A program made the translations under genes and the position numbers. The notes beneath the pieces are model-generated. The model had not been told where the DNA came from. It worked only from the letters and a program-made list of their open reading frames with translations, and did no database searches. Shown piece after piece: positions 1,095 through 62,582 of a DNA stretch of 64,000 nt. How positions within the stretch are numbered: the first letter of the stretch is position 1; each line of letters begins with the position of its first letter. Location: positions 2,336,001 to 2,400,000 of the forward strand of contig OZ244744.1 in the NCBI GenBank assembly GCA_965219455.1, given 5' to 3'. The stretch is from Candidatus Latescibacterota bacterium. Its GTDB lineage: Bacteria; Latescibacterota; UBA2968; GCA-2709665.

Positions 1095-1159
1095 AAGGGC
1101 ATCACCTTTTTGCGAGTAACAACACCGGGATCTCGCGTTTCGCTACCTGCGAAATAGAA

Positions 1160-1431
1160 TCTCCTCCACCCCCATAACGTCCCCTATTCCCTTGCCCTTT
1201 TTCTTTCTCGCCAAAGAAAAAGGGCCAAAAAGAACGGCGCCGCTCGGCGCGGGGCCGGTTTTTCCACGAATCCCCTCAGTGGCATAGACGGGTGACTGTG
1301 CCCTGCGTACAAATCCGACCCCGCGATGCTTCTATGCAGGACGGAATAACGTGGAAAAACCCCCCGCTCCTCCACCGGAAGGTCGTGAGGTAGACCTGGA
1401 AGGACGGCCGCCTCGATTTGCATTCGAACCG
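1160..1431 (+). repeat. Structured dispersed element, subtype A (copy A1)
   Basis: A/T-tract hairpin, then CAAAAAGAACGGCGCCGCTCGGCGCGGGGCC, then a stem enclosing conserved boxes. Homologous to copies at ~30150, ~40075, ~60653 and ~62337. Ends approximate. Confidence 0.85.
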
Positions 1432-1471
1432 CCGATCGCCGATAGATTTCGCCAGGCCATATCGCTCGCTC

Positions 1472-1714
1472 TCAGATATCCATTCGGTTATCGAACGCGA
1501 CGTCTCCCGCGAGCACTCCCAGAGCAGAGCGCGCTATTCCGTTCCCCAGCGAACTCCGATATCCACCTTCGCTTGCAGGGCAGTGCATTACGTGCGTCCC
1601 CTGAGGGTATTCGCGCTGTGCATTTGGCAGGCCCCGCGCCCAGCGGCGACTTTTGGTTCCTTTTGGTCGCTTCAAAAGGAACACGCCGTAGGCAGGGAAT
1701 TTGGAGAAAGGTGG
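1472..1714 (-). repeat. Structured dispersed element, subtype B (copy B1), tail-to-tail with A1
   Basis: Reverse complement matches GTTCCTTTTG-N7-CAAAAGGAACCAAAAGTCGCCGCT.GGCGCGGGGCC copies at ~52981, ~58898, ~60280 and ~61903. Confidence 0.85.
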
Positions 1715-1815
1715 TTCTTAAATTTGGTTTTGATCCTTCATTGTCCTTCCCCGCCGGAGGCGTGGAGCCGGGGGGAGAGGTCTCGCCTTAAGCTGAAAGC
1801 TGATAGCTAATTCCG

Positions 1816-28537: not shown

Positions 28538-30058
28538 TCAGGCCTCGAGCGCGTTCAGGAACTCCTCCAGTTCATCCGATCGATCCAGCACCCTATTATA
28601 ATACGCGACCTTCTCCCCATCAACCAGATCCTTCATATCCACGGAACGCTGTTCCCCGTTCCGGGAGAAAACAATCCGGTCCCAGTTGACCGATTTGACG
28701 TCGTGGCCGAATTTCTCCAGGCATCGTCCGCGAAAATACGCCCGCGTGTCCGTGGGCGGAACGGACATCGCCTCCACGATTCGCTCGTCGTCCAGAAGCC
28801 GCACCATTTTGCCCTGGTCTTCCAGCAGAAAATAGAGTCCGGCCTCCCGATCCACGTTGTGGTACTCCAGATCCTGGCTCTGAAGCCACGACAGGTCCTC
28901 CGGATTGTCCCAGGAAAGTCCCTCCGCCTCGCAAAAACAATCCAGCAACCACTTCTTGCTTACCCAGTCGCAGGTGCCAACCATCGCCATGGGATCCCGT
29001 TCCAGGCCTGCAAGAATCTCCTCCCAGGCGTTCAGGACCCAGTCCGTTTCCACGTCCAGGCCTCCGAACCGCTCTCGCGCCCGCGCCAGGTACATCCGCT
29101 GCACGTCTACGGCCGGTACCAGCCGGTTGCTCTTGCGATCCAGTTCCACCAACCACTGATAACTCTGGTCGCGCGATACGTTCTTCAACGCCGCAATCGG
29201 ATCCTTCAAGACCACGTCGGGCAGATCATCCTGTTCAACCAGCGCCACCACCAGGGCCATCGCGCCCACTTTCAGCGCCGTGACGTATTCCGACATGTTC
29301 GCGTCGCCGAGAATCACGTGGAGCCTGCGGTAGCGGGCCGCGTCGGCGTGGGGTTCGTCGCGGGTATTGATGAGCGGCCGTTTGTGCATGGTGTCGACGC
29401 TGGCGATCACCTCGAAGAATTCGGACCGCTGCGAGAGTTGATAGATGGATGCCCTGTCGCCGCGTTCCACGCCCATCTTGCCCGCGCCCGCGTATATCTG
29501 CCGCGTAACCAGAAAGGGCAGGAGGCCCGTCACGATTCGTTCGAACGGGGTCTCACGGTCCATCAGATAATTCTCGTGACACCCGTAGCTATGGCCTTCG
29601 AAATCGGTGTTGTTCTTGTAGATCCGGACCTCGCCCTCGGGCAGCATCTCCGTTCGCCGTTGGGCGCAGATGTCGACGATCCGCTCGCCCGCGCGGTCCT
29701 GCGCGACCAGCTCGAAGAGGCTCAGACACTCGCCCGTTGAGTATTCCGGATGGGTATGGTCGTTGTAAAAGCGGGCGCCGTTGCGGATAATCAGGTCGCT
29801 CTTCAATTCCCCGAGCGGCACCTTTCGCTGACGATCCTTCTGGAGGTGTACCTTCTCGTCCGTATCGTTCAGCAGGGAATTCACTTCAAACCCCCGCACA
29901 TCCTTGCGGGGGTTCTCCAGCTGATAGTCCCACAGAGGCGTAAATTCACCCTGGAGATAGCACCGGATCAGTTGCATCGACTCTTCCACCACGTCGATCC
30001 CGTCCACTCCGTCTATCGTGATTCCGTACTCCGTTTCCAGACCGAAAAGTCGATTCAT
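28538..30058 (-). CDS. dop: Dop/PafA2-family deconjugase/deamidase
   Basis: GLETEYGI, WDY..ENP.KD.RGF (Dop loop), NGARFYNDHTHPEYST, YKNNTD..GHSYGCHENY and PPTDTRAYFRG motifs. Confidence 0.9.
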   Translation of the reverse strand: MNRLFGLETEYGITIDGVDGIDVVEESMQLIRCYLQGEFTPLWDYQLENPRKDVRGFEVNSLLNDTDEKVHLQKDRQRKVPLGELKSDLIIRNGARFYNDHTHPEYSTGECLSLFELVAQDRAGERIVDICAQRRTEMLPEGEVRIYKNNTDFEGHSYGCHENYLMDRETPFERIVTGLLPFLVTRQIYAGAGKMGVERGDRASIYQLSQRSEFFEVIASVDTMHKRPLINTRDEPHADAARYRRLHVILGDANMSEYVTALKVGAMALVVALVEQDDLPDVVLKDPIAALKNVSRDQSYQWLVELDRKSNRLVPAVDVQRMYLARARERFGGLDVETDWVLNAWEEILAGLERDPMAMVGTCDWVSKKWLLDCFCEAEGLSWDNPEDLSWLQSQDLEYHNVDREAGLYFLLEDQGKMVRLLDDERIVEAMSVPPTDTRAYFRGRCLEKFGHDVKSVNWDRIVFSRNGEQRSVDMKDLVDGEKVAYYNRVLDRSDELEEFLNALEA

Positions 30059-30108
30059 GGGCTCTGCTCAGTTCTTGATCTCAGGGAAAGGCAAATACCG
30101 CGGTTCGC

Positions 30109-30138
30109 TACGCGTGGATACGCGTGGATACGCGTGAA
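30109..30138. repeat. 10-bp tandem repeat (TACGCGTGGA)x~3
   Basis: Directly visible in the sequence. Confidence 0.7.
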
Positions 30139-30149
30139 ATGGAGTCTAC

Positions 30150-30420
30150 CCCTCCCACTAACGTCCCCTTTTCCCTTGCCCTTTTTCTTGCTTCGCCCAA
30201 GAAAAAGGGCGAAAAAGAAGGGCGCCGCTCAGACGCCGCGGGGCTGCTTTTCCGCGAATCGCCTCAGTGTGAAAGCGACGTCAGGTGGCCTACAGGGATC
30301 GCAGGTTTCACCGAGTCGAAATGCTAAACGGATAAGCGCGGAAAAGCCCCTTCCCTACAACCGTGCGCTTGAAAAGACCTCGCGAGATTCGGTACCATAG
30401 AAAAGCTGTACGATAAAGCG
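30150..30420 (+). repeat. Structured element subtype A (copy A2), between arc and dop
   Basis: Head hairpin, GCTTTTCCGCG...CGCGGAAAAGC stem and conserved boxes. Confidence 0.8.
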
Positions 30421-30757
30421 CCGAATCTGCCCCCACTCCGCCACCGGTCGCGCCGTCGTTGTTTTTGTAGGGGCGACTTTCAAAGTCGCCCACGTCACGG
30501 CGTTGACAATTGACATCACAAGGCCCTATCGCTAACCGGTTTTAGCTGACAGCTTACGGCTGATAGCTCTTTCCGAGGGGGCCGGGGGGAGAGGTCCCGC
30601 GACCGCGGCTATCGTGGATCGATTTCGCCAGTCCGTATCGCTCACTGCATTTTGCTTTTTGTTTCAAGCTGATTGCTGAAAGCTGACGGCTGACAGCTTT
30701 TTCTGAGGGGGCCGGGGGGAGAGGTCCGGCTCTTAGCTGACAGCTGACACCGGAACG

Positions 30758-32479
30758 CTAAACAGTACGACTGCCCCGCCGGGTCATCTTCCGTCCGGGG
30801 CGAATCGGCGACGCCCGCACGACGTTTTCCGGATCGTAATCGAGCAACTTCAGCCAGTCTTCCGTGTTATCCGTCGGCGGAAAAATCTCGTTTTCCGTAT
30901 ACTCGGTCTCGACGGCCTGGAGCAGATCGTCCCGGGAAATGCCCTCTTCCTCTCCCGACGCGATGGACCGCCGGATGGCCATCTCCTTTGCCCGTCTCAC
31001 AATCGATTCCATGATCGCCCCACTGGCCAGGTCCCCCCATCGGAGAACGTCCTTCCGGCCGCTTCGCAGGGTCACTTCGAGAAATCGTGTATGGCCCTTT
31101 CGGGAAAAAATCTCTTCCGCCGTGCAGGCAACGAGCGACTCCACGGCCCCTGAGGCGTCGCCCCCGTGTTGTTCAAGCGTCTTCCGGTCGATTGGCAGAC
31201 CGGGCGCCAGATAGATCTTAAGGATATCGAGGGCGCCCTCCCGGTCCGGGCGCTTTACCTTTATTTTTCTGTCGATTCTTCCCGGCCGCAATATGGCGGG
31301 ATCGATCAGGTCGGGCCGGTTGGACGCCAGAATGATCACCACGTCCTGCAGCGACTCGATGCCGTCCATCTCCGAGCAGAACATCGGCACCACCGTATTG
31401 GAAATGCTGTGCGACCGCATCGCCCGGCGCGTACCGAGAACCGACTCCGCCTCGTCGATGAATACCACCGGCAGGCAGCCCTCTTTCCGCTTCTCCCGCG
31501 CCCGGGAAAAAATCTCGCGAACCTGGCGTTCGGACTCGCCCAGCCACATATTCAGAATTTCCGGCCCTTTGATATTCATGAAACATTCTTTCAGGTTCAG
31601 ACCGGCCTTCTGCTGTGCCTGCTTAACGAGGTTGTAGGCGGTTGCCTTGCCGATGAGCGTCTTGCCGCAGCCCGGCGGGCCGTACAACAGGAACCCCTTG
31701 GGTACGCTGTATTGGAACCTGGAGAACAGATCCGGATGCAAGGCCGGCATCTCGATCGTATCTTTAATGGCCTGGATGGCCTCCTCCTGGCCGCCGATTT
31801 TATCCCAGGGCAGATATGGAATCTCTTCGAGGTAATAGTCTTTCGCCTCTTTTTCGGGCATCCGTTCCAGCGCCACGCGGAAATTCGGATCCACGCGAAC
31901 CTCGTCGCCCGCCTTCAGAGACGCCGGTATCAGGTCGCTCGAGCGGGAAAGTACGGTGACCTGACCCCCCGGCTCCTGGCCGACCCGCAGCCGGCCGTCT
32001 TCGAGCACGTCGGAGATCTTCGCCACCTGACCGGAAGACGAATGGCCCAGGTCGCCGACGATTGCAAACGCGTCGTTAACCAGCACCCTCGTGCCCACCT
32101 TCAACGCCTGCTGGTCCAGCCGGGAATCGACATTGGCGTAATATTCCGACCCGCCCACGCTGATATAGGCCACACCGTCGCGGGGGGACTCCAGAAGCGT
32201 GCCCACGCGGTTGGCCGGCGCCGTCACCTTCTCGAGCGCGGCCTCCATCTCCACGATGGTCCGCCTCGCCTCCTCGAACGTAATCTCGTCTTCCTGAAGC
32301 TGTCGCCGGAGATGGTAAAGCATGGGCCGCCGTTTGTCCTTTTCGTCCATGGACATCAATATCTGGTCGATAATGGACAGCGAGCGGAACGTGTGCTGCA
32401 TATCCACGTAGTCCTGCAGAAAGTCATCCGGCGACTCTTGCTGGCGATTTGCGTCGTTAGGGCGGCTAATGGCGCTCAC
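30758..32479 (-). CDS. arc: Proteasome-associated AAA+ ATPase (ARC/Mpa family)
   Basis: N-terminal coiled coil and OB region; IGG, GPPGCGKT, IKGPEILNMWLGESE, FIDEAE, SNRPDLIDPAILRPGR and SGA motifs. GTG start with GGAG RBS. Confidence 0.93.
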   Translation of the reverse strand: MSAISRPNDANRQQESPDDFLQDYVDMQHTFRSLSIIDQILMSMDEKDKRRPMLYHLRRQLQEDEITFEEARRTIVEMEAALEKVTAPANRVGTLLESPRDGVAYISVGGSEYYANVDSRLDQQALKVGTRVLVNDAFAIVGDLGHSSSGQVAKISDVLEDGRLRVGQEPGGQVTVLSRSSDLIPASLKAGDEVRVDPNFRVALERMPEKEAKDYYLEEIPYLPWDKIGGQEEAIQAIKDTIEMPALHPDLFSRFQYSVPKGFLLYGPPGCGKTLIGKATAYNLVKQAQQKAGLNLKECFMNIKGPEILNMWLGESERQVREIFSRAREKRKEGCLPVVFIDEAESVLGTRRAMRSHSISNTVVPMFCSEMDGIESLQDVVIILASNRPDLIDPAILRPGRIDRKIKVKRPDREGALDILKIYLAPGLPIDRKTLEQHGGDASGAVESLVACTAEEIFSRKGHTRFLEVTLRSGRKDVLRWGDLASGAIMESIVRRAKEMAIRRSIASGEEEGISRDDLLQAVETEYTENEIFPPTDNTEDWLKLLDYDPENVVRASPIRPGRKMTRRGSRTV

Positions 32480-32611: not shown

Positions 32612-33517
32612 CTAATCGTCCAGTTCGCGTTTGAAGGTGAACTTCATCTTGGCGCCCACGTTCTCCACCTTGACGTTGCCCCTGATCACGGTCACGTCCA
32701 GGTCTTTGAACGACAACTTGACCTCGTGTCCGATCACGAGCCCCCGGCCCACGTCGACGGTCCACTTGCCCTTCCCCTTGCCCGTGCCTTCGACCATAAT
32801 CGACACCGCGTTTGAAAATATCCAGCCGCGGTACCGCATCTGCCGGTTCTCCTCAATGACGGCGACCCGCCGGCCTTTTTTCTTCGCCAGCCTTTTCAAT
32901 ACGTAGACGCTGTTGATCTCCACCATACCTTTATCCCGTAGCGCCGGGATTGGGATCTCGTGCCGCCGCAGCCCGGACCACGAATCGCCGGACCCGACCT
33001 CCCTGTTGGGCAGGACCGGATGAATTTCCGGCACCCAGAGCTGGTGCAGATCGCTGATCGCGCCTTCGCGGCGCACCTCATACGTCTTGAAGTCGGGCCT
33101 GAATCCCGTCACATCGCCTGCCGAGGTCACTTTCCACGAGAACGACCGATTGTTGAACATATCGAGCAGATACGGAAAATTGTCCACGTGAATCTGGACG
33201 CGGTCTTCCATCACCGTACTTTCGGCGTCCTGAACGACCGCCGTAACGGTGGCGGCGCCCTCCTCAATCGAGCTGACCGCTTCCCTGCTCTTCCATTTTC
33301 CATAGATCCGCACGTCGACCGTGCCGGAAGTCTTGTCTTCGTCGATCAGATCGGCGCGACCGCTGTAATATTCCATTGTCCAGGCATTCTTATAGAGATT
33401 CGACTGCCCCGATTTGTAGACGAAATTGAGCGCCACCTTCTCCCCGCCATACACCGGTCCCCCCGGAACGAACAGAACAGATGAAATGAAAAGGCAAAGA
33501 AAACGAAACCGCCCCAT
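32612..33517 (-). CDS. Hypothetical exported beta-rich protein
   Basis: Signal-peptide-like N-terminus, GGGGAG RBS, 301-aa ORF with an LP..EV..GDSW motif. Confidence 0.7.
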   Translation of the reverse strand: MGRFRFLCLFISSVLFVPGGPVYGGEKVALNFVYKSGQSNLYKNAWTMEYYSGRADLIDEDKTSGTVDVRIYGKWKSREAVSSIEEGAATVTAVVQDAESTVMEDRVQIHVDNFPYLLDMFNNRSFSWKVTSAGDVTGFRPDFKTYEVRREGAISDLHQLWVPEIHPVLPNREVGSGDSWSGLRRHEIPIPALRDKGMVEINSVYVLKRLAKKKGRRVAVIEENRQMRYRGWIFSNAVSIMVEGTGKGKGKWTVDVGRGLVIGHEVKLSFKDLDVTVIRGNVKVENVGAKMKFTFKRELDD

Positions 33518-33541
33518 GGCTCCCCCGACTGTGATTAAAGT

Positions 33542-33767
33542 GATTAAGGCAAAAATGGACTATGATTAAAATGATTCAAATGATGGCTGGGATTAAGGCA
33601 AAAGCGGACTATGATTAAAATGATTCAAATGATGGCTGGGATTAAGGCAAAAATGGACTATGATTAAAATGATTCAAATGATGGCTGGGATTAAGGCAAA
33701 AATGGACTATGATTAAAATGATTCAAATGATGGCTGGGATTAAGGCAAAAATGGACTATGATTAAAA
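33542..33767. repeat. 49-bp tandem repeat, ~4.6 copies
   Basis: GATTAAGGCAAAAATGGACTATGATTAAAATGATTCAAATGATGGCTGG starting at 33542, 33591, 33640, 33689 and 33738 (partial). Copy 2 has two substitutions; no spacers. Confidence 0.95.
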
Positions 33768-34012
33768 CGAGGATTGCTGTGGTGTGTGGTTACCGAAAAG
33801 GCCGCCGCCCTCGGCCAGCGGCGACAGCCCGTATAGAACCTTCCAATCCGAAGACCCTTTTTTTTGACAATGAATGTGCCCACAAGTATAGCCCGGTGCT
33901 TTTGGAATGTCAACCACTAACTATGATTATAATGATTGCTGTGATTAAGAGCTGATTAAAACCCTGCGAAAGACTTTGGGTGGATTGACACCATGATGAA
34001 CTATGGTTACCG

Positions 34013-40074: not shown

Positions 40075-40345
40075 TCTCCCCCTCCCCCTAACGTCCCTTA
40101 TTCCCATGTCCTTTTTGTTGTACGCCCAAGAAAAAGGACCAAAAAGAACGGCGCCGTTCGGCACCTGTCTGCGTGCGGACACGCACAGGCAGGCGGGGCC
40201 GGTGGGGAAACGCCTTAGAGGAGCAGACCAACTTCAGTGCCCTACGAACGCTTGCGGAATTCCTCGGCGATGGTGCTGGACGGATCAGCGCGGAAAAACC
40301 CCCCACGCCACCACCGGTCGCACGAGGGCGGCACGCATGATAAGG
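40075..40345 (+). repeat. Structured element subtype A (copy A3) carrying a nested 30-bp mini-hairpin
   Basis: Head and conserved boxes as in A1; insertion at 40164-40193. Confidence 0.8.
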
Positions 40346-40544
40346 CGAGACCTACCCCCTATCCCTCTTCCTGAAGGAGGGCGGAACGGCGATGGGCCAA
40401 TGTACTGGCCTTCCGAAAGTGCCGAGATCGCGTTCTCCTATCAATCAGAGCGTACATGAAGCACCGCTAACCCTCCCCCTCTCCCTGTGGGAGAGGGGGA
40501 GGGGGGGTGGGGGTCTTGGGGCCGGGGGGAGAGGTCCCGCGCCG

Positions 40545-40577
40545 AAAAAAACCGCCGGACGGGTGTCCGGCGGTTTT
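40545..40577 (-). terminator. Intrinsic terminator
   Basis: ACCGCCGGAC-gggt-GTCCGGCGGT stem with a T-run on the minus strand. Confidence 0.82.
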
Positions 40578-42647: not shown

Positions 42648-45600
42648 TTACTTCAGCAGCAGCATTTTCTGGGACAGAGTAGAGGTCCCGGCGTCGATCC
42701 TGGCGATGTACACGCCGCTTGCAACGCCGCGTCCCTGGTTATCCCTGGCATCCCACTTAACCTGGTACCGACCCGCCGAGTTGAACTGCGAAATCAGATG
42801 CCGTACCTGCTGCCCCACCACATCGTAGATGACGACCGTAACCGGCGCGCCCTCTGGGAGTTCGTAGGAAATCGTGGTGCTCGGGTTGAACGGATTCGGA
42901 TACACGTTGACCGCAAACTCCGTCGGTAACGGCATGCGGGCGCCCAGAATCACCTCGATCACGTTCGACCGGGACACCGAACCATCCAGGTCCACCTGCT
43001 CGAGCCGGTAGTAGACCTTCTCCACGCCGGGCAGGTTCTTGTCTTCGAACGAGTAATTCTGCAGCGCGTCGGAGGTTCCCGCGCCCTGTACGAAGTCGCC
43101 GATGGCCTCGAAGTTTTCCCCGTCGAGGCTGCGCGTGATCTGCCAGCCCGCGTTGTTCGTCTGCGACACCGTGGACCAGTTCAGGACCACTTTCTCTTCC
43201 TGCAACGCCCCGTCGAAAGAAGCAAGTTCGGCGGGGTTGAGCTGCGTGAAGGTAAAGACCACGGCGTCGGTCTCCACCCCATCCACGTTGGCTTTCACGG
43301 TCACCTGGGAGGCACCCGTGAGCACCTGCAGAAGAATTACGGTCGGCCCCGACAACATCATATGCTCGTCGAGTTCAAGCATATTAAGTTCCTGATCAAA
43401 GATGAGCGGCTTGCTGCCCGTATAGGTCACGGTCCACAACACCGCCGGCTCTTCAGATTCGACGTTCTGCAACGTCACGGCCACGCCGGCGCCGCTGCCG
43501 TCGGCCGGTACCTGAAGCATATTACCTTCCAACAGATCGGGGCCCATGCCGACCACGACAATGGTAGAGACCTCGTCGAACGTAAACACCGCCGGCTTGG
43601 ACTCCAGGCCGCCCACGCTGGCCTTAACCGTCACCGTAAGGTCGCCGCCGGTAACCATCAGCGTGAGTGAAGTTGGCCCCTCGGACAACATCATCTGTTC
43701 GTCCAGATCAAGCGTGTTGCCATCCGCATCCATGATGACCAGCGTTCCGTCACCCTCCGTGGAAATCGTCCAGGAAGCGACGGAATCCCCCTCGGCCACG
43801 TTTTCCAGCCCAATGTTGACTGAGACGCTGTCGCCACGGCCCATCTCGACCATGTTTCCTTCCATCAACGCATCGCCCGAGCCAACCACTGCGGGGAGAA
43901 CAATCTGCGTGAACGTGAAACTCACGGGCTCCGTCTCCTCGCCGTTTACGTTGGCCTTAACGGTCACCTCAAGGTCTCCGCCGGATACCTTCAACTTCAG
44001 TGACGCTGGCCCGGATACCATCATATTCTCGTCCGGCTCCAGCACATTGCCTTCCATATCCAATACGACCAGCGTTCCGGTACCTACCGAGGTTATCGTC
44101 CACCTGATGCTCGGCTCTTCGGCTTCTACGTTTTTCAACCCAACGTCGAGTTCAACGGCATCGCTAGCGGGAATCTGAAGCATGTTCCCTTCCATCAGCG
44201 CATCGCCCATGCCAACCACGACAATGGCCAAAACCTGGTCGAACGTAAACACCGCCGGCTTAGACTCGAGGCCACCGACGCTTGCTTTAATCGTCACCGT
44301 AAGGTCGCCGCCGGTAACCAACAACGTCAGTGAAGTCGGCCCCTCGGACAACATCATCTGTTCGTCCAGATCAAGCGTGTTGCCATCCGCATCCATGATG
44401 ACCAGCGTTCCGTCACCCTCCGTGGAAATCGTCCAGGAAGCGACGGAATCGCCCTCGGCCAGGTTCTGCAGTTCGATGTTGACCGAGACGCTATCGCCAG
44501 GGCCTATCTCGACCATGTTCCCTTCCATCAACGAATCGCCCGAGCCAACCACTGCAGGGAGAACAATCTGCGTGAACGTAAACGTCACGGGCTCTGACTC
44601 GACGCCATTCACATTGGCCTTGACAGTCACCTCAAGGTCTCCGCCGGATACCTTCAACGTCAGCGACGCCGGACCGGAAACCATCATATGTACGTCCGGC
44701 TCCAGCATATTGCCTTCCATATCCTCTATCACCAGCGTTCCAGCGCCTGCCGAGGTTACCGTCCACCTGACGTTTGGATCTTCGGCGTCTACGTTCTCCA
44801 AACCAAGTTGGACCGCCACGCTGCTATCCGGTGGAATGTCGAGCATGTTCCCTTCCATCAGCGCGTCGCCGCTGCCAACTACGATCGGGCTCTCGATGGG
44901 CGGAAGCTGTGTGAACGTAAACACCGCGGGCACTGCGTCCCTACCGTCTACGTTGGCCTTGACCGTTACCTTGAGATCGCCACCGGTCACCTTCAAACTC
45001 AGCGAAGTCGGCCCGGACAACATCATCTGATCGTCCAGATCCAGCATGTTGCCTTCCATATCCACAATGAGCAGCGTTCCGTCGCCCTCCGTGGAAATTG
45101 TCCAGGAAACGCCTGGATCTTCGCCCATCATGTTCTGCAAAGAGACATTGACGGCGACGGTGTCGCCGGGTGGAACATCCAACATGTTCCCTTCCATCAG
45201 CGCGTCGCCGCTGCCAACTACGAGCGGAAGCTGTGTGAACGTAAACACCGCGGGCACCGCGTCCCTACCGTCTACGTTGGCCTTGACCGTTACCTTGAGA
45301 TCGCCACCGGTCACCTTCAAACTCAGCGAAGTCGGCCCGGACAACATCATCTGATCGTCCAGATCCAGCATGTTGCCTTCCATATCCACAATGAGCAGCG
45401 TTCCGTCGCCCTCCGTGGAAATTGTCCAGGAAACGCCTGGATCTTCGCCCATCATGTTCTGCAAAGAGACATTGACGGCGACGGTGTCGCCGGGTGGAAC
45501 ATCCAACATGTTCCCTTCCGTCAGCGCGTCGCCGGCGCCAATCACGTTAATGGGCGTATAAAAGCTCACCCTGGCCGCCGAGGTGTCAAGACTGTCCAAC

Positions 45601-46109
45601 CCCGCCCCGGTTCCAATATCGGCTTTGCTGACATAGAAATATGCCCCTTCGCCGATATCGGTCTGCGCAACCACTTCCACAGTTCCGATATAACCATTTG
45701 CCGGAACCTCCGCGCCCACCACCCCTGGGGCAAAATAAGTCAGTGTTAGGACATCCGGCCCCACGGCAAGCGGAACGTTAAATATCCCGTCAAATCCGAC
45801 TATCTTCCAGCTGTCCGTAAACATAGCCTCCATATTGCTATCAGCAAATTTGGCGTCGAATCCCACGGCTACGACGCCACCGGCGTCTTCGACAAACAAC
45901 TGGACCTTTATGGTGTCCCCGGCAGCCGCGGGCGGAAGCGTATTCACACTATCGTTCACCGCATCCGCGGGACTGTCCGCCATTTCCAATGCGGTATCTA
46001 CCATCAGCTTCTTTCCGACCAGCGCTCCGGCCTCGGCGCTTCCGATGGTACCCATAACAAAAAAAAGGCAGACCGCAATAGGAACCAAAATCGGTTTGAC
46101 TCTATACAT
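42648..46109 (-). CDS. Secreted protein with seven ~108-112-aa Met-rich repeats and a FlgD-Ig/T9SS-CTD-like C-terminus
   Basis: Repeats VVG.GD.L.EGNM...W......G......D..GN.L..D..MM.SGP...FTF; signal peptide; C-terminus shared with 40603-42081. Confidence 0.9.
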   Translation of the reverse strand: MYRVKPILVPIAVCLFFVMGTIGSAEAGALVGKKLMVDTALEMADSPADAVNDSVNTLPPAAAGDTIKVQLFVEDAGGVVAVGFDAKFADSNMEAMFTDSWKIVGFDGIFNVPLAVGPDVLTLTYFAPGVVGAEVPANGYIGTVEVVAQTDIGEGAYFYVSKADIGTGAGLDSLDTSAARVSFYTPINVIGAGDALTEGNMLDVPPGDTVAVNVSLQNMMGEDPGVSWTISTEGDGTLLIVDMEGNMLDLDDQMMLSGPTSLSLKVTGGDLKVTVKANVDGRDAVPAVFTFTQLPLVVGSGDALMEGNMLDVPPGDTVAVNVSLQNMMGEDPGVSWTISTEGDGTLLIVDMEGNMLDLDDQMMLSGPTSLSLKVTGGDLKVTVKANVDGRDAVPAVFTFTQLPPIESPIVVGSGDALMEGNMLDIPPDSSVAVQLGLENVDAEDPNVRWTVTSAGAGTLVIEDMEGNMLEPDVHMMVSGPASLTLKVSGGDLEVTVKANVNGVESEPVTFTFTQIVLPAVVGSGDSLMEGNMVEIGPGDSVSVNIELQNLAEGDSVASWTISTEGDGTLVIMDADGNTLDLDEQMMLSEGPTSLTLLVTGGDLTVTIKASVGGLESKPAVFTFDQVLAIVVVGMGDALMEGNMLQIPASDAVELDVGLKNVEAEEPSIRWTITSVGTGTLVVLDMEGNVLEPDENMMVSGPASLKLKVSGGDLEVTVKANVNGEETEPVSFTFTQIVLPAVVGSGDALMEGNMVEMGRGDSVSVNIGLENVAEGDSVASWTISTEGDGTLVIMDADGNTLDLDEQMMLSEGPTSLTLMVTGGDLTVTVKASVGGLESKPAVFTFDEVSTIVVVGMGPDLLEGNMLQVPADGSGAGVAVTLQNVESEEPAVLWTVTYTGSKPLIFDQELNMLELDEHMMLSGPTVILLQVLTGASQVTVKANVDGVETDAVVFTFTQLNPAELASFDGALQEEKVVLNWSTVSQTNNAGWQITRSLDGENFEAIGDFVQGAGTSDALQNYSFEDKNLPGVEKVYYRLEQVDLDGSVSRSNVIEVILGARMPLPTEFAVNVYPNPFNPSTTISYELPEGAPVTVVIYDVVGQQVRHLISQFNSAGRYQVKWDARDNQGRGVASGVYIARIDAGTSTLSQKMLLLK

Positions 46110-46192
46110 CACGCTTCTCCTTCTCTCGGTGTGGGTTTCGCTCCAGAATCCTGAATAAATGCTCGCTCCAAAAGGTTTACGCTAAATAGCAG

Positions 46193-46231: not shown

Positions 46232-49200
46232 TTACTTCAGCAACATCAACCGTTTGGCATCCTGGAACTTACCGGCAACTGAGACCTGATAGAAGTAAAT
46301 TCCGCTCGAAACCGATACGCCGCGGTCGTCCATTCCAGCCCACTGCACTTTGTAACGACCGGCGGGCTGGCGCTCACTCACCAACGTGCGCACCTCCTGG
46401 CCCAGCAGGTTGTAGATCCGGAGAACCACGTCGCCGCTTTCCGCCAGGTCGTACGGAATGTTGGTTTGAGGGTTGAAGGGGTTCGGGAAGTTCTGGTGCA
46501 GCGCGAACTCTGAGGGGGTGCTCTGGACGTCCAGCGCACCAAGTGAAACCACCGGGTTCGACAGCTGGCTGGGATCGAAGACCACGCCCTGAGCGATCTC
46601 GAACCTGGCGTTGTCTGCAAACTCCCTCAGAACCTTGAACGTGAAGGTCACAAGCGCACCCTCGCCGCTCACGGAACCCGCGTCGACTATGGCGTTGACC
46701 ACCGCGACCCGGCCATCTTCCGGCCAGTTCTTGAATAATGGTGTGTCGCCGCCCTGAGACTTCAGCAAATCGTTATCGGCGGGTACGGCGCTGACGAATT
46801 CGAACTTGTCGGCGTCATACGTCAACTCGAAACCGAAGCCCATCAACTGTTCGGCATTGGCCAAGGAAACCGTTACCGAGATCTCCTCACCCACCAGCAC
46901 ACGGTCGCTGGTCAGCTCCATATTCAACTCGGTATCGGGGTTCACACCCGGCCGCTGCGGCGCAATAGCGATCTTGCTGCCCGCGGCAAGCACGGCAGTA
47001 CGGCCGTAGGACATTGCCGCGATCACAAAGTCCGCGAAATCGATCACGCCGTCATTATCGACGTCTGCCTGCGGGTTAAAGTTACTCTGGCCCCTCTGAG
47101 AGTTGAAGGCCGCAGCAAAGGCGACGAAATCTTCGAAGTCAACCGTCAGGTTTCCGCCCTGGAAAGGCAGCCTGATGAGATAGACCGGCTCGCCCTCGGC
47201 GTTGGTGAAGGGAAGCCGTTTCGCCAGGTTAACCGCAACTATCTGGCCCGGCGACGTGTTTTCGCCGTCGAACGCATCGATACGATAAACGAGAGCGCCG
47301 ACGACTTCCGGTAGATTCTTGTCTACGAATTGCGCCGAACCCGGTTCGAGGGTGGTAAGCTCCTCTAACTCTTCGGCAGAGGCGCCCCGCATCACCTTAT
47401 AGTCCTTTACGCCCATGATCGGGATGCTATGCCCACGGTAGGGAATAAAGCCAACGATACCCTCATCCACCGAACCCTTCCAGGTGAGGGAGGTTCGCAG
47501 CGCCGCATTGCCATCCGCCGACACGACGACCGGCATACCGGCGCTTTCCGTTACCTCGGCAGGCGCAATGTTGTCAACCGCCCTTACCGGCGCCTTAGTG
47601 GTTGTGAGTGCAGACATGAGCTGTCCGTGCGCGCTCGTCCGGATGTTGGCCGGAACCGAGGCGTCGCCCATCAACACGCTCACGTCGGGATTTACGGGCA
47701 GGAAGACCAGATCCTTCTGGTCGCCGATGATGGACTGGACATAGTCCTCGGGCGCGTTGAACTGGTTCATCAACTCATCGTTCGTCAACACGGCCTCGGG
47801 CGCCATACCCAGCAACTCAAGGGTCTGCTGCACGCTCTCCTTCGTGAACGTACGTTTGCCGAGCGCTGAAGTTCTGACAGAAGAGCCAGCGGCGCCAACC
47901 GCCGCCACCGCCCAATTGGTGGACACGTTGTCCAGCGCAGGAACCACGGCGCGCTGAATCTCAGCGACTATGGTTCTATCCGGGCTGAGGTCTGCCCACG
48001 GCACCCACGCCAACTTCGGCTCTTCCAGCAACATCAGTTTGCCGTCCTCATCCAGACCGGTGCTAACCATTAGTTGCCTGAAGAGCTTATAGACGTCTAC
48101 GCTGGCGTGATCCGGTGAATTATTGAAGCTCACCAGCACCATGCCGCCCTGGTCGCCATCGCCCCTCGGCCCCATGTAATCTTCAACGATCAACACCGAG
48201 TCGGGCGCAGCAGGCGCGCCAGGAGCCGGAGGAGGAGGCTCGGTACCGAATGTCAACGTGTCGGTTCCGGTTGCCGTTCCGGCGGTCATTCCCTCCAGTC
48301 CCACATTGACCACTCTTATCACAACCTCGCCCGATGACTCGGATGCCATCCCGGGGAAGGTTTTCTGGCCATTTTGGATATCCTGCGGGCCCTGGGGCAC
48401 ACGAACCTGGATGTTGTCAGACGTAAGTTGGATAGCCATGGTCAGGTATTTGTCATCTTCAGGCTTTTCGATTTTCGAGTCGATCTTGTCGGCCTTCTTC
48501 GTGCTCGTGTTGCCGAACTTGTCCGTGGCAGTCACGGAGATTTCGAAATCACCGATGACATGTTGCGTTGGCTCGCCGTCTTCCATCGCCTGGACGGTGA
48601 ACTCGGAGAACGCGCCCGTGTCGAAACTGAAACCCTTCAGCGTCGTCGTGAATGACGCATTCTCCTGAGCGTCGATATCTTCCACTACGATCGTGACATT
48701 CTTGAGCTCCTTCTCAGACGTGATACTGATGCTGCGCTCACCGGCTTCCCAGTCTTCGGGTTGAAGCGTGGCGATACCCTGTAAGGAATCCCCAGCGGCG
48801 ACAGAAACGCCGGTTCCTTCGAACGTGACGGTTGTCAGATCCTGTCCGTCGGCCAACACCTTCAGCCGCGACATCTCGTTTTTCTGTCCGTAAGTGACTC
48901 CCCGGACATCCTCGTCCGCAGCACGCGTGGCCTTCGAATCGAGCGCCGTGATTTTGAACTCCAATGGTGTACCGACAATAACCGATTTCTGATCGTCGAC
49001 GACCGTAGCCACCATAAACGAGTCGGCAGTCGGGTTATCGAACTCGTCTTTGAACGTCAATGTGTCGGTAATCTTCGCACCAACATTACCAGCTTTGTCG
49101 AACGCGAGAATTTGCAGATAATATTCCGCTCCGTCATCGAGCGAATCGTCGATGGCAGCAACCCGGACACGTCCCTTGCTGAGTTCCTCTCTGTTCCCGC

Positions 49201-52189: not shown

Positions 52190-53410
52190 ACAGCTATCAG
52201 CCGTCAGCCGTCAGCTTGAAACGAGAAGGCGAAACCGAAGACCAAAATGCATAAAACAGCAAGAACGACAAACAGCTCACACCAAGGCACAGCGAGACCT
52301 CTCCCCCCAGCCCCCTCTCCTAAAGGAAAGGGGGGGGAAGTCCAAATCAGAAAAAACAGTGATCAGTGGTCAGCGGTCAGCTTGAAGCAAATCAAAAACC
52401 GAAAACCAATAAGCATAACGCAGCAATAACAACAATCAGCTCACACCAAGGCACAGCGAGACCTCTCCCCCCAGCCCCCTCTCCTAAAGGAAAGGGGGAG
52501 AAAGTCCAAATCAGGAAAAACAGTGGTCAGTGGTCAGTGGTCAGTGGTCAGCGGTCAGCGGTCAGCTTAAAGCAAATCAAAAACCGAAGACCAATAGGCA
52601 TAACGTCAATCAGCTCACACAAAGGCACAGCGAGACCTCTCCCCCCGGCCCCCTCGGACAAAGCTATCTGCTTTCAGCCGTTAGCTGTCAGCTAAAAACG
52701 AAATGCAAAACGCAGATTGCGATATGGACTGGCGAAGTCAATTCACAGATACCTGGTTTTTGTAGGGGCGACCGGCCGGTCGCCCTCGAATCGGGAAAAC
52801 AGCAGTCGGCAGGAAACGAGAAGCAAAAAGCGAAAACCAATAAGCATAATGCAGGAAAAATGACAATCGGCTCACACAAAGGCACAAAGGGAAAGGCAGC
52901 GATCAGCGGTCAGTTGTCCGCCGTCAGCCAAAAGGCGTTAGCGATACGGACCGGCGATGTCAATTCCATTTGTTCTTACCACTTCTCCCCATATTCCCTG
53001 CCTGCGGCGCGTTCCTTTTGACACGACCAAAAGGAACCAAAAGTCGCCGCTAGGCGCGGGGCCGTCCATATGCACAGCGCGAATTGCCTCACGGGTTGCA
53101 CCGGAACTACTGCCCTGCCAACCACGGAGAAACATCGGTCCTCGGCGATGAACGGAACCGCACGCTCTGCTCTGCGAGTCCTCTCGAAAGGCATTTTGAG
53201 CGTATCTACATTGGTCTTCCGTTTGCGAGGAGCAGTCACCTAAAACCGGTTAGCGATATGGCCTGGCGATGCCAATTCACAGATACCTGGTTTTTGTAGG
53301 GGCGGTTCTTTTGGGTCCTTTTTCGCAAATAAGAAAAAGGACGTAAAAATAAAAAAAACAATAAGAAAGTAGGAAAATGACCTTACCGACCCGGAGCGCG
53401 ACCCATCAAC
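52190..53410. repeat. Mosaic repeat region: ~170-bp tandem units, (CAGYGGT)n heptamers, a REP-like hairpin, element B2 (52981-53222) and a truncated A head (53303-53345)
   Basis: Modules recur at 30540-30750, 58555-59380, 60020-60640 and 61730-62330. Confidence 0.85.
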
Positions 53411-58554: not shown

Positions 58555-59380
58555 AAATCAGCTATCAGCGGTCAGGAAAAACAGCTATCAGCGGTCAGCC
58601 GTTAGCTGTCAGCTTGAAGCAAAACCAAAAGGCGGGACCTCTCCCCCCGGCCCCCTCGGACAGAGCTATCAGCGGTCAGCCGTTAGCTGTCAGCTAAAAA
58701 CGAAAAGCAAAACGCAGATTGCCATACGGCCTGGCGATATCGATTCGCGGATGCCTGGTTTTTTGTAGGGGCGACCGGCCGGTCGCCCTTGTTTCGGGAA
58801 AACAGCAGTCAGCAGGGAAAACGACAATCAGCTCACACAAAGGCACAAAGGGAAAGGCAGCGGTCAGTTAGAAGGAAAAGGCAAATTCAACATTCACATC
58901 TCCCCATATTCCCTGCCTGCGGCGCGTTCCTTTTGACACGACCAAAAGGAACCAAAAGTCGCCGCTAGGCGCGGGGCCGTCCATATGCATAGCGCGAATT
59001 GCCTCACGGGTTGCACATGATCCTCTGCCCTGCCAACCACGGAGGAACATCGGTCCTCCGCGCTGGACGGAAACGCACGCTCTGCTCTGAGAGTCCTCTC
59101 GAAAGGCAATTCGAGCGTATCTACATTGGTTTTCCGTTTGCGAGGAGCTGTCACCTAAAACCGGTTTGCCATACGGCCTGGCGATGTCAATTCGCGGATG
59201 CCTGGTTTTCGTAGGGGCGACCGGCCGGTCGCCCTTGTTTCGGGAAAACAGCAGTCAGCAGGGAAAACGACAATCAGCTCACACAAAGGCACAAAGGGAA
59301 AGGCAGCGGCGGAGACCGCTCCCCCCGGCCCCAAGGCCCTCACCCCCCGGCCCCCTCGCCCACGGGGAGAGGGGGAGGAG
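58555..59380. repeat. Mosaic repeat region including element B3 (58898-59137)
   Basis: Long similarity to 52636-53305; internal ~145-bp duplication (about 58720-58862 versus 59166-59308). Confidence 0.85.
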
Positions 59381-59963: not shown

Positions 59964-60279
59964 GGTGGTTCCCTTTCGTTCGGAGCGGTGGCTACGTGGC
60001 CTTATACAATAATATATGAAGAACAGCTATCAGTAGTCAGCGATCAGCCGTCAGCTTGAAGCAAAAGGCGAAAACCTAATTCAACATCTACTTCTCCCCA
60101 AATTCCCTGCCTTCGGCGAGAATAGCGATCAGCTTGAAACGAGAAGCTAAAAGCGAAAACCAATAAACATAAAGCTGGAAAAACGATAATCAACTCACAC
60201 AAAGACACAAAGGGAAAAGCAGCTATCAGCGGTCAGCCATCCGCTTGAAGCAAAAGGCGAAAACCAAATTCAACATCTA

Positions 60280-60895
60280 CTTCTCCCCAATTTCCCTGCC
60301 TTCGGCGAGTTCCTTTTGACGCGACCAAAAGGAACCAAAAGTCGCCGCTAGGCGCGGGGCCGTCGATATGCATAGCGCGAATTGCCGCACGGGATGCACA
60401 GGATCCTCTGCCCTGCCAGCAACGGTGGAACAAGAGGTCCTCGGCGCTGAACGGAACCGCGCGCTCTGCTCTGGTAGCCCTTTGGTCAGGTTTCGCCTCC
60501 ATCGATCCAATGGTTACCGGATTAAAAGGGCAGCCATCAGCTATCAGCTTGAAACGAGAAGCAAAAAGCGAAAACCAATAAACATAAAGCTGGAAAAACG
60601 ATAATCAACTCACACAAAGACACAAAGGGAAAAGCAGCAATTGCTGAAAGTGCGGTACGACGCCAAACCACGTGGCGGTCCTATCCGATCAATTTCTCAC
60701 CCGAACGGTGGAGAATTTGGGGGGTTTTGCCGCGTCGATCCATTCAGCAATGTCGTGTGGCCTATCATCCTCAATCCGCAGGGCACAAGTGCTTGTTTCT
60801 TCCCCTGAGGCGATTCGCGGAAAAACCGGCCCCGTGCCGAACGGCGCGGTTCTTTTTGGTCCTTTTTCTTACGCGAATAAGAAAAAGGACGTAAA
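60280..60895. repeat. Tail-to-tail pair B4 (+, 60280-60521) and A5 (-, 60653-60895)
   Basis: Homology to A1/B1. Confidence 0.85.
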
Positions 60896-61720: not shown

Positions 61721-61902
61721 AATGGGAAACAGCAATCAGCAGTCAGGAAAAGCAGCTATCAGCGGTCAGCGATCAGCTTGAAGCAAAAGCGAGAATCAAA
61801 TTCAACATCCACTTCTCCCCAATTTCCCTGCCTTCGGCGGGAATAGCGATCAGCCGTCAGCGGTCAGCTTGAAGCAAAAGGCGAAAACCAAATTCAACAT
61901 CC

Positions 61903-62582
61903 ACTTCTCCCCAATTTCCCTGCCTTCGGCGAGTTCCTTTTGAAGCGACCAAAAGGAACCAAAAGTCGCCGCTAGGCGCGGGGCCTGCCATATGCATAGC
62001 GCGAATTGCCTCACGGGATGCACATGATACTCTGCCCTACGAACCACGGATGAACATCGGTACCCGGCGATGGACGGAACCGCGCGCTCTGCTTTGATCT
62101 CGCTCTGCAATGGCATCGCGTTTGAAACCTGCGTGGCTTTCTGATAGCAAGATGCAAGCAATCAGCAGTCAGCGGTCAGCTTGAAGCAAAAGCGAGAATC
62201 AAATTCATGACCTCTCCCCCCGGCCCCCTCTCCTAAAGGAAAGGGGGAGGGAAACCGAATATATATTTGGCGGGCAGCAGAAAAGACGAAAATCAGCTAT
62301 CAGTAGTCAGCCATCAGCAAACAGCAAAAATCTAAAACCGGTAACACCGCCAAACCGAGCGGTGGACCTTCCCTGTAAAACTCCCGCCCGTCCGGAGGTG
62401 GAGATGGGGCTTTTCCGCGCCAATCCGTCCATCGCCTGCGCCACGGAACTCTTGAAAAGCACTCAGGCCACGTACACCTTTCACCACCACCGGGGCGATT
62501 CGCGGAAAAGCAGCCCCGCGGCGTTTGAGCGGCGCCGTTCTTTTTGGTCCTTTTTCTTGGCGTACAAGAAAAAGGACGTAAA
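61903..62582. repeat. Tail-to-tail pair B5 (+, 61903-62144) and A6 (-, 62337-62582)
   Basis: Homology to A1/B1. Confidence 0.85.

What the first reader, a model, noticed from the sequence alone, without database searches (positions are those of the whole stretch)
1283..1334. Fixed-length hypervariable windows inside the element: guide-like or hypermutated cassettes
Seen: between the conserved boxes, window 2 is exactly 28 nt in all five A copies but differs in sequence (1307-1334, 30294-30321, 40246-40273, 60750-60777, 62435-62462). Window 1 is 15, 14, 15, 15 and 15 nt. In B, window 2 is 26-28 nt, and the 48-nt tails of B1, B2, B4 and B5 align without gaps, keeping only a few anchors such as TGG at 38-40. 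The heads are highly conserved. Heavy substitution with almost no indels is not what neutral decay usually gives. Caveat: the A3 and A6 windows still match at 16/28 and the B windows are clearly related, so these look diverged rather than independently acquired. Inference: programmable loops (bridge-RNA or guide-like), a molecular ruler, or polar mutagenic copying.
Basis: partly seen in the sequence, partly recalled or inferred. Interest (0 to 1): 0.82.

Follow-up and report, generated by a model that had tools for sequence, protein, structure and literature searches.

The report
Length-locked variable loops in repeat
A sponge-symbiont bacterium carries about fifty copies of a folded, roughly 200-base intergenic element in which two stretches keep an exact length while their letters differ from copy to copy; this most likely marks spacer loops of an undescribed structured RNA-like repeat rather than guides or hypermutated cassettes.

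Summary
The element occurs 51 times in this Candidatus Latescibacterota genome. It is found in all 18 searched genomes of its family and in 4 of 30 genomes of a sister family. A 12-bp closing stem (P1, with compensatory changes) encloses about 81 nt: box 1, window 1 (14-16 nt), box 2, window 2 (28 nt), box 3. The box 2 to box 3 distance is 42 nt in 113 of 123 copies. Window columns are near maximal entropy, with mean identity 41% against 79% for the scaffold.

Tests for guides or hypermutation were negative:
- The interior is not stably folded and shows no internal covariation.
- It holds no conserved reading frame.
- No host-genome, own-flank or phage match exceeds chance.
- The genome has no IS110 or TnpB gene.
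- Substitutions are ordinary (transitions about equal to transversions, no adenine bias).
- Copies at the same locus in different genomes mostly have near-identical windows.

Indels per substitution are about six times rarer in the windows than in the tails. My best reading is length-locked, unpaired linkers in a folded RNA (or single-strand) scaffold of a new dispersed repeat family. Strand, transcript ends and function remain unknown.

The parts
1134..1192 (+). A1 leader, partly conserved among copies. It contains a TAGAAT-like hexamer; promoter function is not shown.
   Evidence: Alignment of 51 copies. The promoter scan found no sigma-70-type site here.
1194..1225 (+). A1 head hairpin P0: two 13-nt arms and a 6-nt loop.
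   Evidence: 13 predicted pairs, 2 of them with compensatory changes in 42 copies. 1344 of 1352 cells are Watson-Crick in 104 copies. Also present in the fold.
1226..1236 (+). A-rich linker between P0 and the GC hairpin.
   Evidence: Nearly invariant in 42 copies.
1237..1250 (+). GC hairpin hp2. Read on the minus strand it is followed by a T-run, which looks like a terminator.
   Evidence: Four copies carry a 26-nt palindromic insertion here.
1257..1268 (+). 5' strand of the closing stem P1 of A1.
   Evidence: 94.4% of cells are paired and 6 of 12 pairs changed on both sides in 135 copies. In the second family 96.5% are paired.
1269..1282 (+). Box 1 (AATCnCCTCAGnGG). Positions 1274-1278 are the proposed 5' strand of P1b.
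   Evidence: Conserved in A, B and the second family. P1b is 85.2% paired and 91.9% paired, mostly through G-U intermediates.
1283..1297 (+). Window 1: 15 nt, hypervariable, 14-16 nt across the family.
1298..1306 (+). Box 2 (GTGCCCTGC).
   Evidence: The CC at its centre is invariant. Pairing with box 1 (P2) is weak: 77.3% of cells paired in the first family and 47.8% in the second.
1307..1334 (+). Window 2: 28 nt, hypervariable. This is the core of the finding.
   Evidence: Box 2 to box 3 spacing is 42 nt in 113 of 123 copies. No internal covariation. A tried hairpin P3 was rejected at 42.8% paired.
1335..1349 (+). Box 3 (TGCnGGACGGAAT). It includes the proposed 3' strand of P1b.
1350..1361 (+). 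3' strand of the closing stem P1 of A1.
1362..1432 (+). A1 tail: C-rich run and short hairpins. Tails are modular and vary between copies.
   Evidence: Indels are about six times commoner per substitution here than in the windows.
1433..1740 (-). B1: a paralogous element with the same layout but different P1 letters, lying convergent to A1.
   Evidence: A1 plus B1 are missing from the orthologous intergenic site in 5 of 5 relatives.
30177..30372 (+). A2 head and body. It lies on the opposite strand between the proteasomal ATPase gene and the Pup-ligase gene.
40107..40324 (+). A3 head and body, with a 26-nt insertion in hp2 and a replaced 5' strand of P1.
60699..60891 (-). A4 head and body.
62384..62578 (-). 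A5 head and body.
52955..53161 (+). B2.
58870..59075 (+). B3.
60253..60463 (+). B4, convergent to A4.
61877..62086 (+). B5, convergent to A5.

Best explanation
The two windows are unpaired, length-locked linkers inside the fold of a lineage-specific, high-copy intergenic element of sponge-associated Latescibacterota.

**Anatomy (shown).** The head is a 13-bp hairpin P0, an A-rich linker and a GC hairpin. The body is a 12-bp closing stem P1 plus a probable 5-bp extension P1b. P1 encloses about 81 nt: box 1, window 1, box 2, window 2, box 3.

**How it works (inferred).**
- The element acts as a folded single strand, most likely an RNA of about 0.2-0.3 kb bound by a partner that reads the three boxes.
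- The boxes must sit at fixed distances, so insertions and deletions in the linkers are purged, while most linker bases are not read in the family-wide fold.
- Paralogous lineages are old and have drifted nearly to saturation.
- Copies are gained, lost and exchange bodies by recombination within repeat-rich intergenic DNA.

**Status of the steps.**
- Shown: the stems and their compensatory changes, the fixed spacing, the lack of fold or coding in the interior, ordinary substitutions, presence/absence differences between species, and presence in RNA libraries.
- Inferred: that the folded strand is RNA, which strand it is, the protein partner, and the biological role.
For: - P1 is 94.4% paired, with 6 of 12 pairs changed on both sides in 135 copies. 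The same structure with partners slid by 1-3 columns pairs only 37-53%.
- The B type and the second family use different P1 letters that still pair.
- P1b is 85-92% paired in both families through C-G, U-G and U-A series.
- Spacing is fixed to about one base in 135 copies and again in 30 copies of the second family.
- Indel events per substitution are 0.033 in the windows (90 per 2749, 260 pairs) against 0.208 in the tails (111 per 534, 30 alignable pairs).
- The interior is no more stable than shuffles: mean z -0.15 over 135 copies.
- No Watson-Crick covariation appears inside.
- No frame stays open: at best 75 of 135 copies.
- Head plus body folds with z -3.9.
- Contigs from 4 metatranscriptome libraries of 2 studies cover the unique interior 1243-1682 at depths similar to the neighbouring genes.
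- No Rfam family matches.
Against: - Orthologous copies keep their windows better than the flanking DNA: 5 independent loci have windows at least 94% identical while their flanks are 76-94% identical. This hints that window letters are read after all, or that these tracts were recently exchanged.
- Bins of at least 99% identity also occur away from the element, in 158 of 2346 bins against 9 of 31 at the element.
- The transcribed strand is undecided. A-C mismatches outnumber G-T 26 to 5 in P1 of the first family, which favours the opposite strand, but the count is 8 to 12 in the second family. hp2 plus a T-run looks like a terminator on the opposite strand, whereas the G-U series of P1b only works on the named strand.
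- The RNA evidence comes from assembled contigs only. It gives no strand and no ends, and DNA carry-over is not excluded.
- P2 is weak (77% and 48% paired).
- No protein partner was identified.
Confidence: 0.5

Rival explanations
1. The element is a DNA-level mobile element of the foldback or MITE kind. The conserved heads are terminal inverted repeats bound by a transposase or recombinase. The boxes are further protein sites, and the windows are spacers whose length sets the phasing of those sites on the DNA.
For: - A and B lie head-outward in inverted orientation in 11 of 51 cases.
- The heads are the best conserved part.
- The A1-B1 unit is absent from the orthologous site in 5 of 5 relatives.
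- Only 6 of 105 copies in other genomes are shared in place with this genome by a strict test.
- Bodies are swapped at some orthologous sites.
Against: - Compensatory changes in P1 and P0, and the different but still complementary P1 of the B type, point to base pairing of one strand rather than protein reading of duplex DNA.
- 40 of 51 A copies have no B partner.
- No clean ends or target duplications could be read, because filled and empty sites differ in several other repeats.
- No candidate autonomous element was found. There is no IS110 or TnpB gene, and the two Y1 (RAYT-like) genes are flanked by a different palindrome.
Confidence: 0.25
2. The windows are specificity loops (guide-like). 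Each copy displays its own 15-nt plus 28-nt sequence in a common scaffold to pair with a nucleic-acid target, in the manner of bridge-RNA loops or box C/D guides.
For: - The windows vary among paralogues yet are at least 94% identical among orthologues at 5 independent loci, often better conserved than the flanks.
- Window 2 is unpaired and of fixed length between conserved boxes.
- There are about 50 distinct versions per genome.
Against: - No host-genome match exceeds shuffles. Best scores are 25.9 against 25.3 bits for window 1 and 27.9 against 27.8 bits for window 2, over 46 copies.
- Windows are no more complementary to their own flanks or tail than to those of other copies.
- No phage, plasmid or viral-contig match was found.
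- The genome has no IS110 or TnpB gene.
- The windows form a continuum of descent rather than independent acquisitions.
- High-identity tracts also occur away from the element.
Confidence: 0.12
3. The windows are diversified by a targeted mutagenic process, such as a diversity-generating retroelement (DGR)-like mechanism or error-prone copying, each time or often.
For: - The genome holds 16 reverse-transcriptase matches.
- At two orthologous sites the windows differ strongly while the head is identical.
Against: - The reverse transcriptases checked lie in group II introns.
- The spectrum is ordinary: 1411 transitions against 1338 transversions. Bases are involved evenly: A 1505, G 1455, C 1267 and T 1271 of 2749 mismatches.
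- Most orthologous copies have near-identical windows.
- The two divergent cases match window types of other copies, so they are swaps, not new mutations.
Confidence: 0.03
4. The pattern is plain neutral decay of an old repeat, and the fixed length is chance.
For: The windows are related by descent and lie near saturation.
Against: - Length is held to about one base in 135 plus 30 copies across two families.
- The indel rate per substitution is about six times lower than in the tails of the same pairs.
Confidence: 0.03

Closest known systems
REP / REPIN and other structured interspersed bacterial repeats (ERIC, Correia and similar MITE-like elements)
   Same: These are high-copy, intergenic and lineage-restricted. 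They occur as inverted pairs, form hairpins kept by compensatory change, and vary in presence between relatives. REPINs are described as two REPs in inverted orientation mobilised by a RAYT transposase (PMC3337134 and PMC3116915; I saw only the abstracts in the listing).
   Different: This element is much larger, at about 200 nt per arm. Its closing stem encloses an unpaired 81-nt interior with three boxes and two length-locked variable linkers. The RAYT-like genes of this genome are flanked by a different palindrome. 40 of 51 A copies stand alone.
IS110-family bridge RNA
   Same: It is a structured RNA scaffold with internal loops whose sequence differs between versions while the scaffold is kept (PMC11208160 and PMC11208158; I saw only the abstract starts in the listing).
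   Different: No IS110 recombinase domain is present in the genome. The copies do not sit beside any recombinase gene. The windows show no complementarity to their own flanks. There are about 50 diverged copies per genome rather than identical copies of one insertion sequence.
Box C/D guide RNAs of archaea (recalled from general knowledge, no call)
   Same: They have conserved boxes separated by guide stretches of fixed length. The guides differ between paralogues and are kept between orthologues.
   Different: The box motifs here are different. The system is bacterial. No target complementarity was detected in the genome-wide search. The dedicated rRNA test could not be completed (timed out).
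Multi-copy bacterial small RNA families and large structured RNAs of unknown function (Rfam motifs)
   Same: These are intergenic, structured and supported by covariation, sometimes with several copies per genome.
   Different: None of the 4227 Rfam models matches. The copy number is far higher than usual, and the copies turn over like mobile DNA.

Membership tests
IS110 bridge RNA | Encoded in the non-coding end of an IS110/IS1111 element, next to its DEDD/Tnp recombinase gene. | tested here: not met
   PF02371 and PF01548 each give 0 matches in the genome, which is rated 100% complete. The same searches hit 6 of 14 control genomes.
IS110 bridge RNA | Loop halves are complementary to the target and to the element's own ends. 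| tested here: not met
   Duplex energies of a copy's windows with its own upstream region or tail equal those with other copies. The median rank of the own partner is 15.5-27.5 of 46. The exact element ends are unknown, which weakens this test.
Diversity-generating retroelement (template/variable repeat) | Differences are confined to adenines of the template, with a dedicated reverse transcriptase nearby. | tested here: not met
   Mismatches involve A, G, C and T about equally, and transitions about equal transversions. The reverse transcriptases next to elements lie in group II introns.
REPIN / RAYT system | The repeat flanks the single-copy RAYT gene and forms a short REP doublet hairpin. 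| tested here: not met
   The 244-aa Y1 gene in L162 is flanked by a different palindrome, not by A or B.
MITE (non-autonomous DNA transposon) | Terminal inverted repeats, target-site duplication and a related autonomous element. | tested here: inconclusive
   Inverted A/B pairs occur in 11 of 51 cases. No duplication or clean ends could be read at 5 filled/empty comparisons. No autonomous partner was found.
Any Rfam RNA family | Match to a curated covariance model. | tested here: not met
   There are 0 matches at gathering score over the window. At E up to 0.1, five loci holding A and B copies match only group II intron models.
Independent small-RNA gene | Own promoter, defined 5' and 3' ends, and an intrinsic terminator. 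| tested here: inconclusive
   RNA-library contigs cover the interior, but they give no strand or ends. No sigma-70-type promoter was found at the leader. The only terminator-like site at the head is on the opposite strand.
Small protein-coding gene | A reading frame kept open across copies. | tested here: not met
   The best of six frames is open in only 75 of 135 copies.

The most novel reading that the evidence does not exclude
The element is a new class of bacterial scaffold RNA present in about fifty versions per genome. Each version displays its own 15-nt and 28-nt loops as specificity determinants. The targets would lie outside the symbiont genome (phage, plasmid or sponge-host nucleic acids), or the loops would direct site-specific insertion. 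This would explain why the loops differ between paralogues but are almost identical at the same locus in different species.
Probability: 0.12. Interest if true: 0.9.

Novelty: new variant of a known kind. Interest (0 to 1): 0.6.

Why it matters
If the reading holds, this is an undescribed structured element. It accounts for hundreds of conserved stems in each genome of a widespread, uncultured group of sponge symbionts.

Its architecture is rare in bacteria: conserved boxes held at fixed distances by linkers of free sequence. That is the architecture of ruler-type or guide-type ribonucleoproteins.

It gives a concrete, testable object (fold, partner protein, strand) in organisms for which almost no RNA biology is known.

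It also warns that intergenic DNA in these genomes is a mosaic of several repeat families that recombine, which matters for assembling and comparing such genomes.

Tried and rejected
- **Hidden hairpins or a pseudoknot in the windows.** Column-pair mutual information on 45 and then 135 copies found only P1. An anti-diagonal scan found only P1 and the 3-bp core of P1b. The hairpin P3 that I saw by eye is 42.8% paired. Window 1 against window 2 of the same copy is no better than against other copies.
- **Interior fold.** Mean z is -0.15.
- **Coding.** No frame is conserved.
- **Targets.** Windows against the masked host genome equal shuffled controls. There is no match among phages or plasmids, and the head pattern is absent from viral contigs.
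- **rRNA-specific duplex test.** It is therefore untested.
- **Strand from wobble counts.** The two families contradict each other. P0 is uninformative at 2 against 2. Both strands fold equally well, z -3.9 and -3.6.
- **Promoter.** The TAGAAT-like hexamer in the leader was not confirmed by the scan.
- **Clean insertion ends.** Five filled/empty comparisons were too diverged and carried other repeats.
- **Autonomous partner between widely spaced A and B.** The inserts were ORF-less group II introns or ordinary genes.
- **RNA cover.** No RNA contig covers 1088-1148, and contigs of the upstream gene stop near 1035-1051.
- **Literature.** Four searches listed no paper on such a repeat in Latescibacterota or sponge symbionts. 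I read listings and abstract starts only, and supplements were not consulted.

Full report
**Where and in what.** The window lies in a single-contig genome of 5.84 Mb with 58% G+C. The 80 listed rows are all titled metagenome-assembled genomes: Candidatus Latescibacterota in all but two, and those two are titled Gemmatimonadota. Runs holding the locus include sponge metatranscriptomes. Genes in the window fit such an organism: a Pup ligase, a proteasomal ATPase, a protein with a type-IX secretion tail, and a proton pyrophosphatase.

**Checking the observation.**
- A profile built from the five copies finds 151 hits in the genome, 51 of them at 100 bits or more. Two of those 51 are truncated inside the body.
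- The distance between the two arms of the closing stem is 98-101 nt in 47 of 48 anchored copies of this genome and in 97 of 101 copies from other genomes. The search would have accepted 89-140 nt.
- Among 135 non-identical copies, 123 had internal anchors. Box 2 starts at position 39 or 40 in 117 of them. Box 2 to box 3 is 42 nt in 113. Box 3 to the end is 18 nt in 121.
- Window columns carry about 1.2-2.0 bits of entropy and the stems and boxes about 0-0.6 bits (digit strings).
- Mean pairwise identity is 0.41 in the windows, 0.79 in the scaffold and 0.21 for shuffled windows.
- The B type has the same layout with other letters in the closing stem. Its bodies are 90-92 nt in the 13 of 31 copies that matched my anchors.

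**Anatomy.** RNAalifold on 42 copies gives two stems.
- A 13-bp hairpin P0, with two pairs showing compensatory change.
- A closing stem P1, with four pairs showing compensatory change.

On 135 copies P1 is 94.4% paired, and 6 of 12 pairs changed on both sides. For example, one pair is U-A in 80 copies and C-G in 45, and another is G-C in 98 and A-U in 29. The whole structure pairs 83% of cells, against 37-53% when the partners are slid by 1-3 columns.

A 5-bp extension P1b joins box 1 to box 3. It is 85.2% paired, mostly through C-G, U-G and U-A series. A box 1/box 2 helix (P2) that would close window 1 as a loop is weak at 77.3%. A hairpin I thought I saw in window 2 is not supported at 42.8%.

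Between P0 and P1 lie an A-rich linker and a GC hairpin. The region downstream of P1 (the tail) is built from other repeats and differs between copies.

**What the windows are not.**
- *Not a stable fold.* The 81-nt interior folds no better than dinucleotide shuffles: mean z -0.15, with 4.4% of 135 copies below -2.
- *Not covarying.* Column-pair information finds no Watson-Crick covariation inside.
- *Not coding.* No reading frame is kept; the best is open in 75 of 135 copies.
- *No match in the host genome.* With all A/B hits masked, the best scores are 25.9 bits for real window 1 against 25.3 bits shuffled, and 27.9 against 27.8 bits for window 2. The maxima do not exceed the shuffles (46 copies, 5 shuffles each).
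- *Not complementary to their own element.* Pairing with the partner window, tail or upstream region is no better than with those of other copies.
- *Not in mobile-DNA collections.* The body has no match in the phage collection and the A1-B1 unit none in the plasmid collection. The head pattern is absent from viral contigs.
- *No known RNA-guided enzyme in the genome.* There is no IS110-type recombinase domain and no TnpB-type domain.
- *Not tied to the RAYT-like genes.* Two Y1 transposase matches exist. The 244-aa one is flanked by a different palindrome.
- *No known RNA family.* No Rfam model matches the element.

**Substitutions and indels.** I took the 260 pairs of copies whose windows are 70% to under 100% identical.
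- The windows show 2749 substitutions and 90 gap events, a ratio of 0.033.
- Tails could be aligned for 30 of these pairs. They show 534 substitutions and 111 gap events, a ratio of 0.208.
- The two figures come from different aligners, and the pairs are not independent.
- Transitions number 1411 and transversions 1338. A, G, C and T are involved in 1505, 1455, 1267 and 1271 of the mismatches.

This is an ordinary spectrum with strong purging of indels.

**Copies at the same locus in different genomes.**
- *A1-B1 is absent elsewhere.* At the orthologous site of 5 of 5 relatives the gap between the flanking genes is 54-471 nt, against about 740 nt here, and it is filled with other repeats.
- *Few copies are shared in place.* By a strict test, 6 of 105 strong copies in other genomes are shared with this genome.
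- *The six shared pairs split in two.* Four are almost identical over the whole element, windows included, while neighbouring coding and intergenic DNA is 50-90% identical. In the other two the body, or the body with part of the head, has been replaced by the type of another copy.
- *A second screen agrees.* It gave 12 pairs with flank identity of at least 0.72. Windows are at least 0.94 identical in 7 pairs (5 independent loci), 0.85 in one, and 0.57-0.70 in four.
- *High-identity bins cluster at the element but are not unique to it.* Bins of 100 nt with at least 99% identity make up 9 of 31 bins at the element and 158 of 2346 elsewhere.

So there is no sign of ongoing diversification at a locus. 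The windows are either constrained in each lineage, or they ride on recently exchanged tracts. Bodies can also be swapped between copies.

**Distribution.**
- A DNA search found the element in 18 of 21 other genomes of the same family and in 0 of 19 genomes of the sister family.
- A covariance model of the body found it in 18 of 18 genomes of the same family, in 4 of 30 of the sister family (genera g7 and g10), and in 0 of 102 genomes of twelve further families of the phylum. This search used the stricter filters.
- The four sister-family genomes hold 144 matches of 105-110 nt.
- Thirty of those, aligned, measure 105-109 nt. They carry the same three boxes and AT-richer windows. P1 is 96.5% paired with a new A-U/G-C exchange, P1b is 91.9% paired and P2 47.8%.
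- More distant genera also have copies that share the head but carry another, longer body.
- The metagenome scan found 8 stretches, all in one record set.

**Is it RNA, and which strand?**
- *RNA presence.* Contigs from four metatranscriptome libraries of two studies cover the unique interior from about 1243 to 1682 with at most 3 differing letters per aligned piece (one contig also carries an extra ~70-nt stretch near 1438). Depths are 5.5-25, against 3-32 on the flanking genes. These are assembled contigs, so they show neither strand nor ends, and DNA carry-over is not excluded.
- *Both strands fold well.* z is -3.9 and -3.6.
- *For the named strand.* The G-U series of P1b in both families only works on it. 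Some tails carry terminator-like hairpins followed by T-runs. An ORF-less group II intron follows the A tail in the same direction at two loci. IIC introns are typically found downstream of terminator motifs or other inverted repeats (abstract of PMC1702495, seen in the listing). I did not establish the class of these introns.
- *For the opposite strand.* A-C mismatches outnumber G-T 26 to 5 in P1 of the first family, but this is not repeated in the second family, at 8 to 12. The GC hairpin plus T-run at the head looks like a terminator on that strand.

I leave the strand open, leaning slightly to the named strand.

**Reading.** The data fit a folded single-strand scaffold. Stems are kept by compensatory change, three boxes must sit at set distances, and two linkers may take almost any letters but not any length.
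- The guide idea is not excluded, and the orthologue pattern keeps it alive. Every target test I could run was negative.
- Mutagenic copying is contradicted.
- A DNA-level mobile element remains a serious rival for how the copies spread. The two views can both hold: a mobile module whose product is a structured RNA.

**Comparison with known systems.** The nearest kinds are structured interspersed repeats such as REP/REPIN and MITE-like elements, and multi-copy structured RNAs. Against all of these, the element differs by its size, its boxed interior with length-locked linkers, and its copy number. It fails the defining tests for IS110 bridge RNAs, diversity-generating retroelements, the REPIN/RAYT system and every Rfam family. 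The MITE and small-RNA-gene tests are inconclusive.

Four literature searches listed nothing on such a repeat in these bacteria. I saw listings and abstract starts only.

Noticed in passing
L021:585-1350 and L022 (genome 2,868,085-2,868,850 and about 2,676,150-2,676,860); L207, L208, L209: Group II introns sit beside or between A and B elements. ORF-less copies of about 0.8 kb lie between an A tail and a convergent B. Copies with a 463-aa reverse transcriptase lie within 0.1-0.3 kb of A or B. The genome has 16 reverse-transcriptase matches in all.
   Followed up: partly
window 52178-52605, 58555-58714, 60011-60075, 61726-61907, 62136-62345: Arrays of 7-nt tandem units (CAGCnnT), usually ending in CAGCTTGAA, lie next to many A and B elements here and in relatives. 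Their role is unknown.
   Followed up: no
window 33493-33786: A tandem array of a 49-nt AT-rich unit, about six copies at 85-100% identity, lies in an intergenic region.
   Followed up: no
L162:1417-2151 (genome about 1,922,860-1,923,600): A 244-aa Y1 (RAYT-like) transposase gene carries HUH and Y motifs. It is flanked on both sides by its own palindromic repeat, centred on GAGGGCAnnATGCCCTC. The same repeat appears in an orthologous intergenic site of a relative.
   Followed up: partly
window 40470-40545, 30575-30600, 62210-62250; also in many loci of relatives: A further repeat family combines a C/G-rich palindrome (CCCCCTCTCCC ... GGGAGAGGGGG) with a GGCCGGGGGGAGAGGTC box. It often lies near A tails.
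   Followed up: no
L021:490-512; tails of several A copies; L096 and L113: A hairpin repeat, GGGGCAACC-CTTGT-GGTTGCCC, is followed by a T-run in some places, like an intrinsic terminator. It recurs in the tails of different A copies.
   Followed up: no
window 40160-40190 (A3) and three other copies in the genome: A 26-nt palindromic insertion sits inside the GC hairpin of the head. Indels therefore do occur in the head, while the body keeps its length.
   Followed up: no
window 42648-46112, 46232-51172, 53509-58209 (minus strand): Three very large open frames (1154, 1646 and 1566 aa) hold internal repeats of about 330 nt. They are separated by 2.3-kb and 4.5-kb non-coding stretches packed with A, B and heptad repeats.
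   Followed up: no
window 28538-32479: The Pup-ligase gene and the proteasomal ATPase gene, both on the minus strand, are separated by a 700-nt spacer that holds an A element on the plus strand.
   Followed up: no
L018:278-391 and L019:468-598 (genomes of another genus): A third element type shares the conserved head (hairpin, A-rich linker, GC hairpin). It has another closing stem and a longer interior of about 150 nt.
   Followed up: no
8-kb loci L073-L160 compared with the genome: Identity between related genomes is mosaic. Tracts of 0.3-1.5 kb at 99% or more lie within regions at 80-90%, which suggests frequent recombination between lineages or mixed assemblies.
   Followed up: partly
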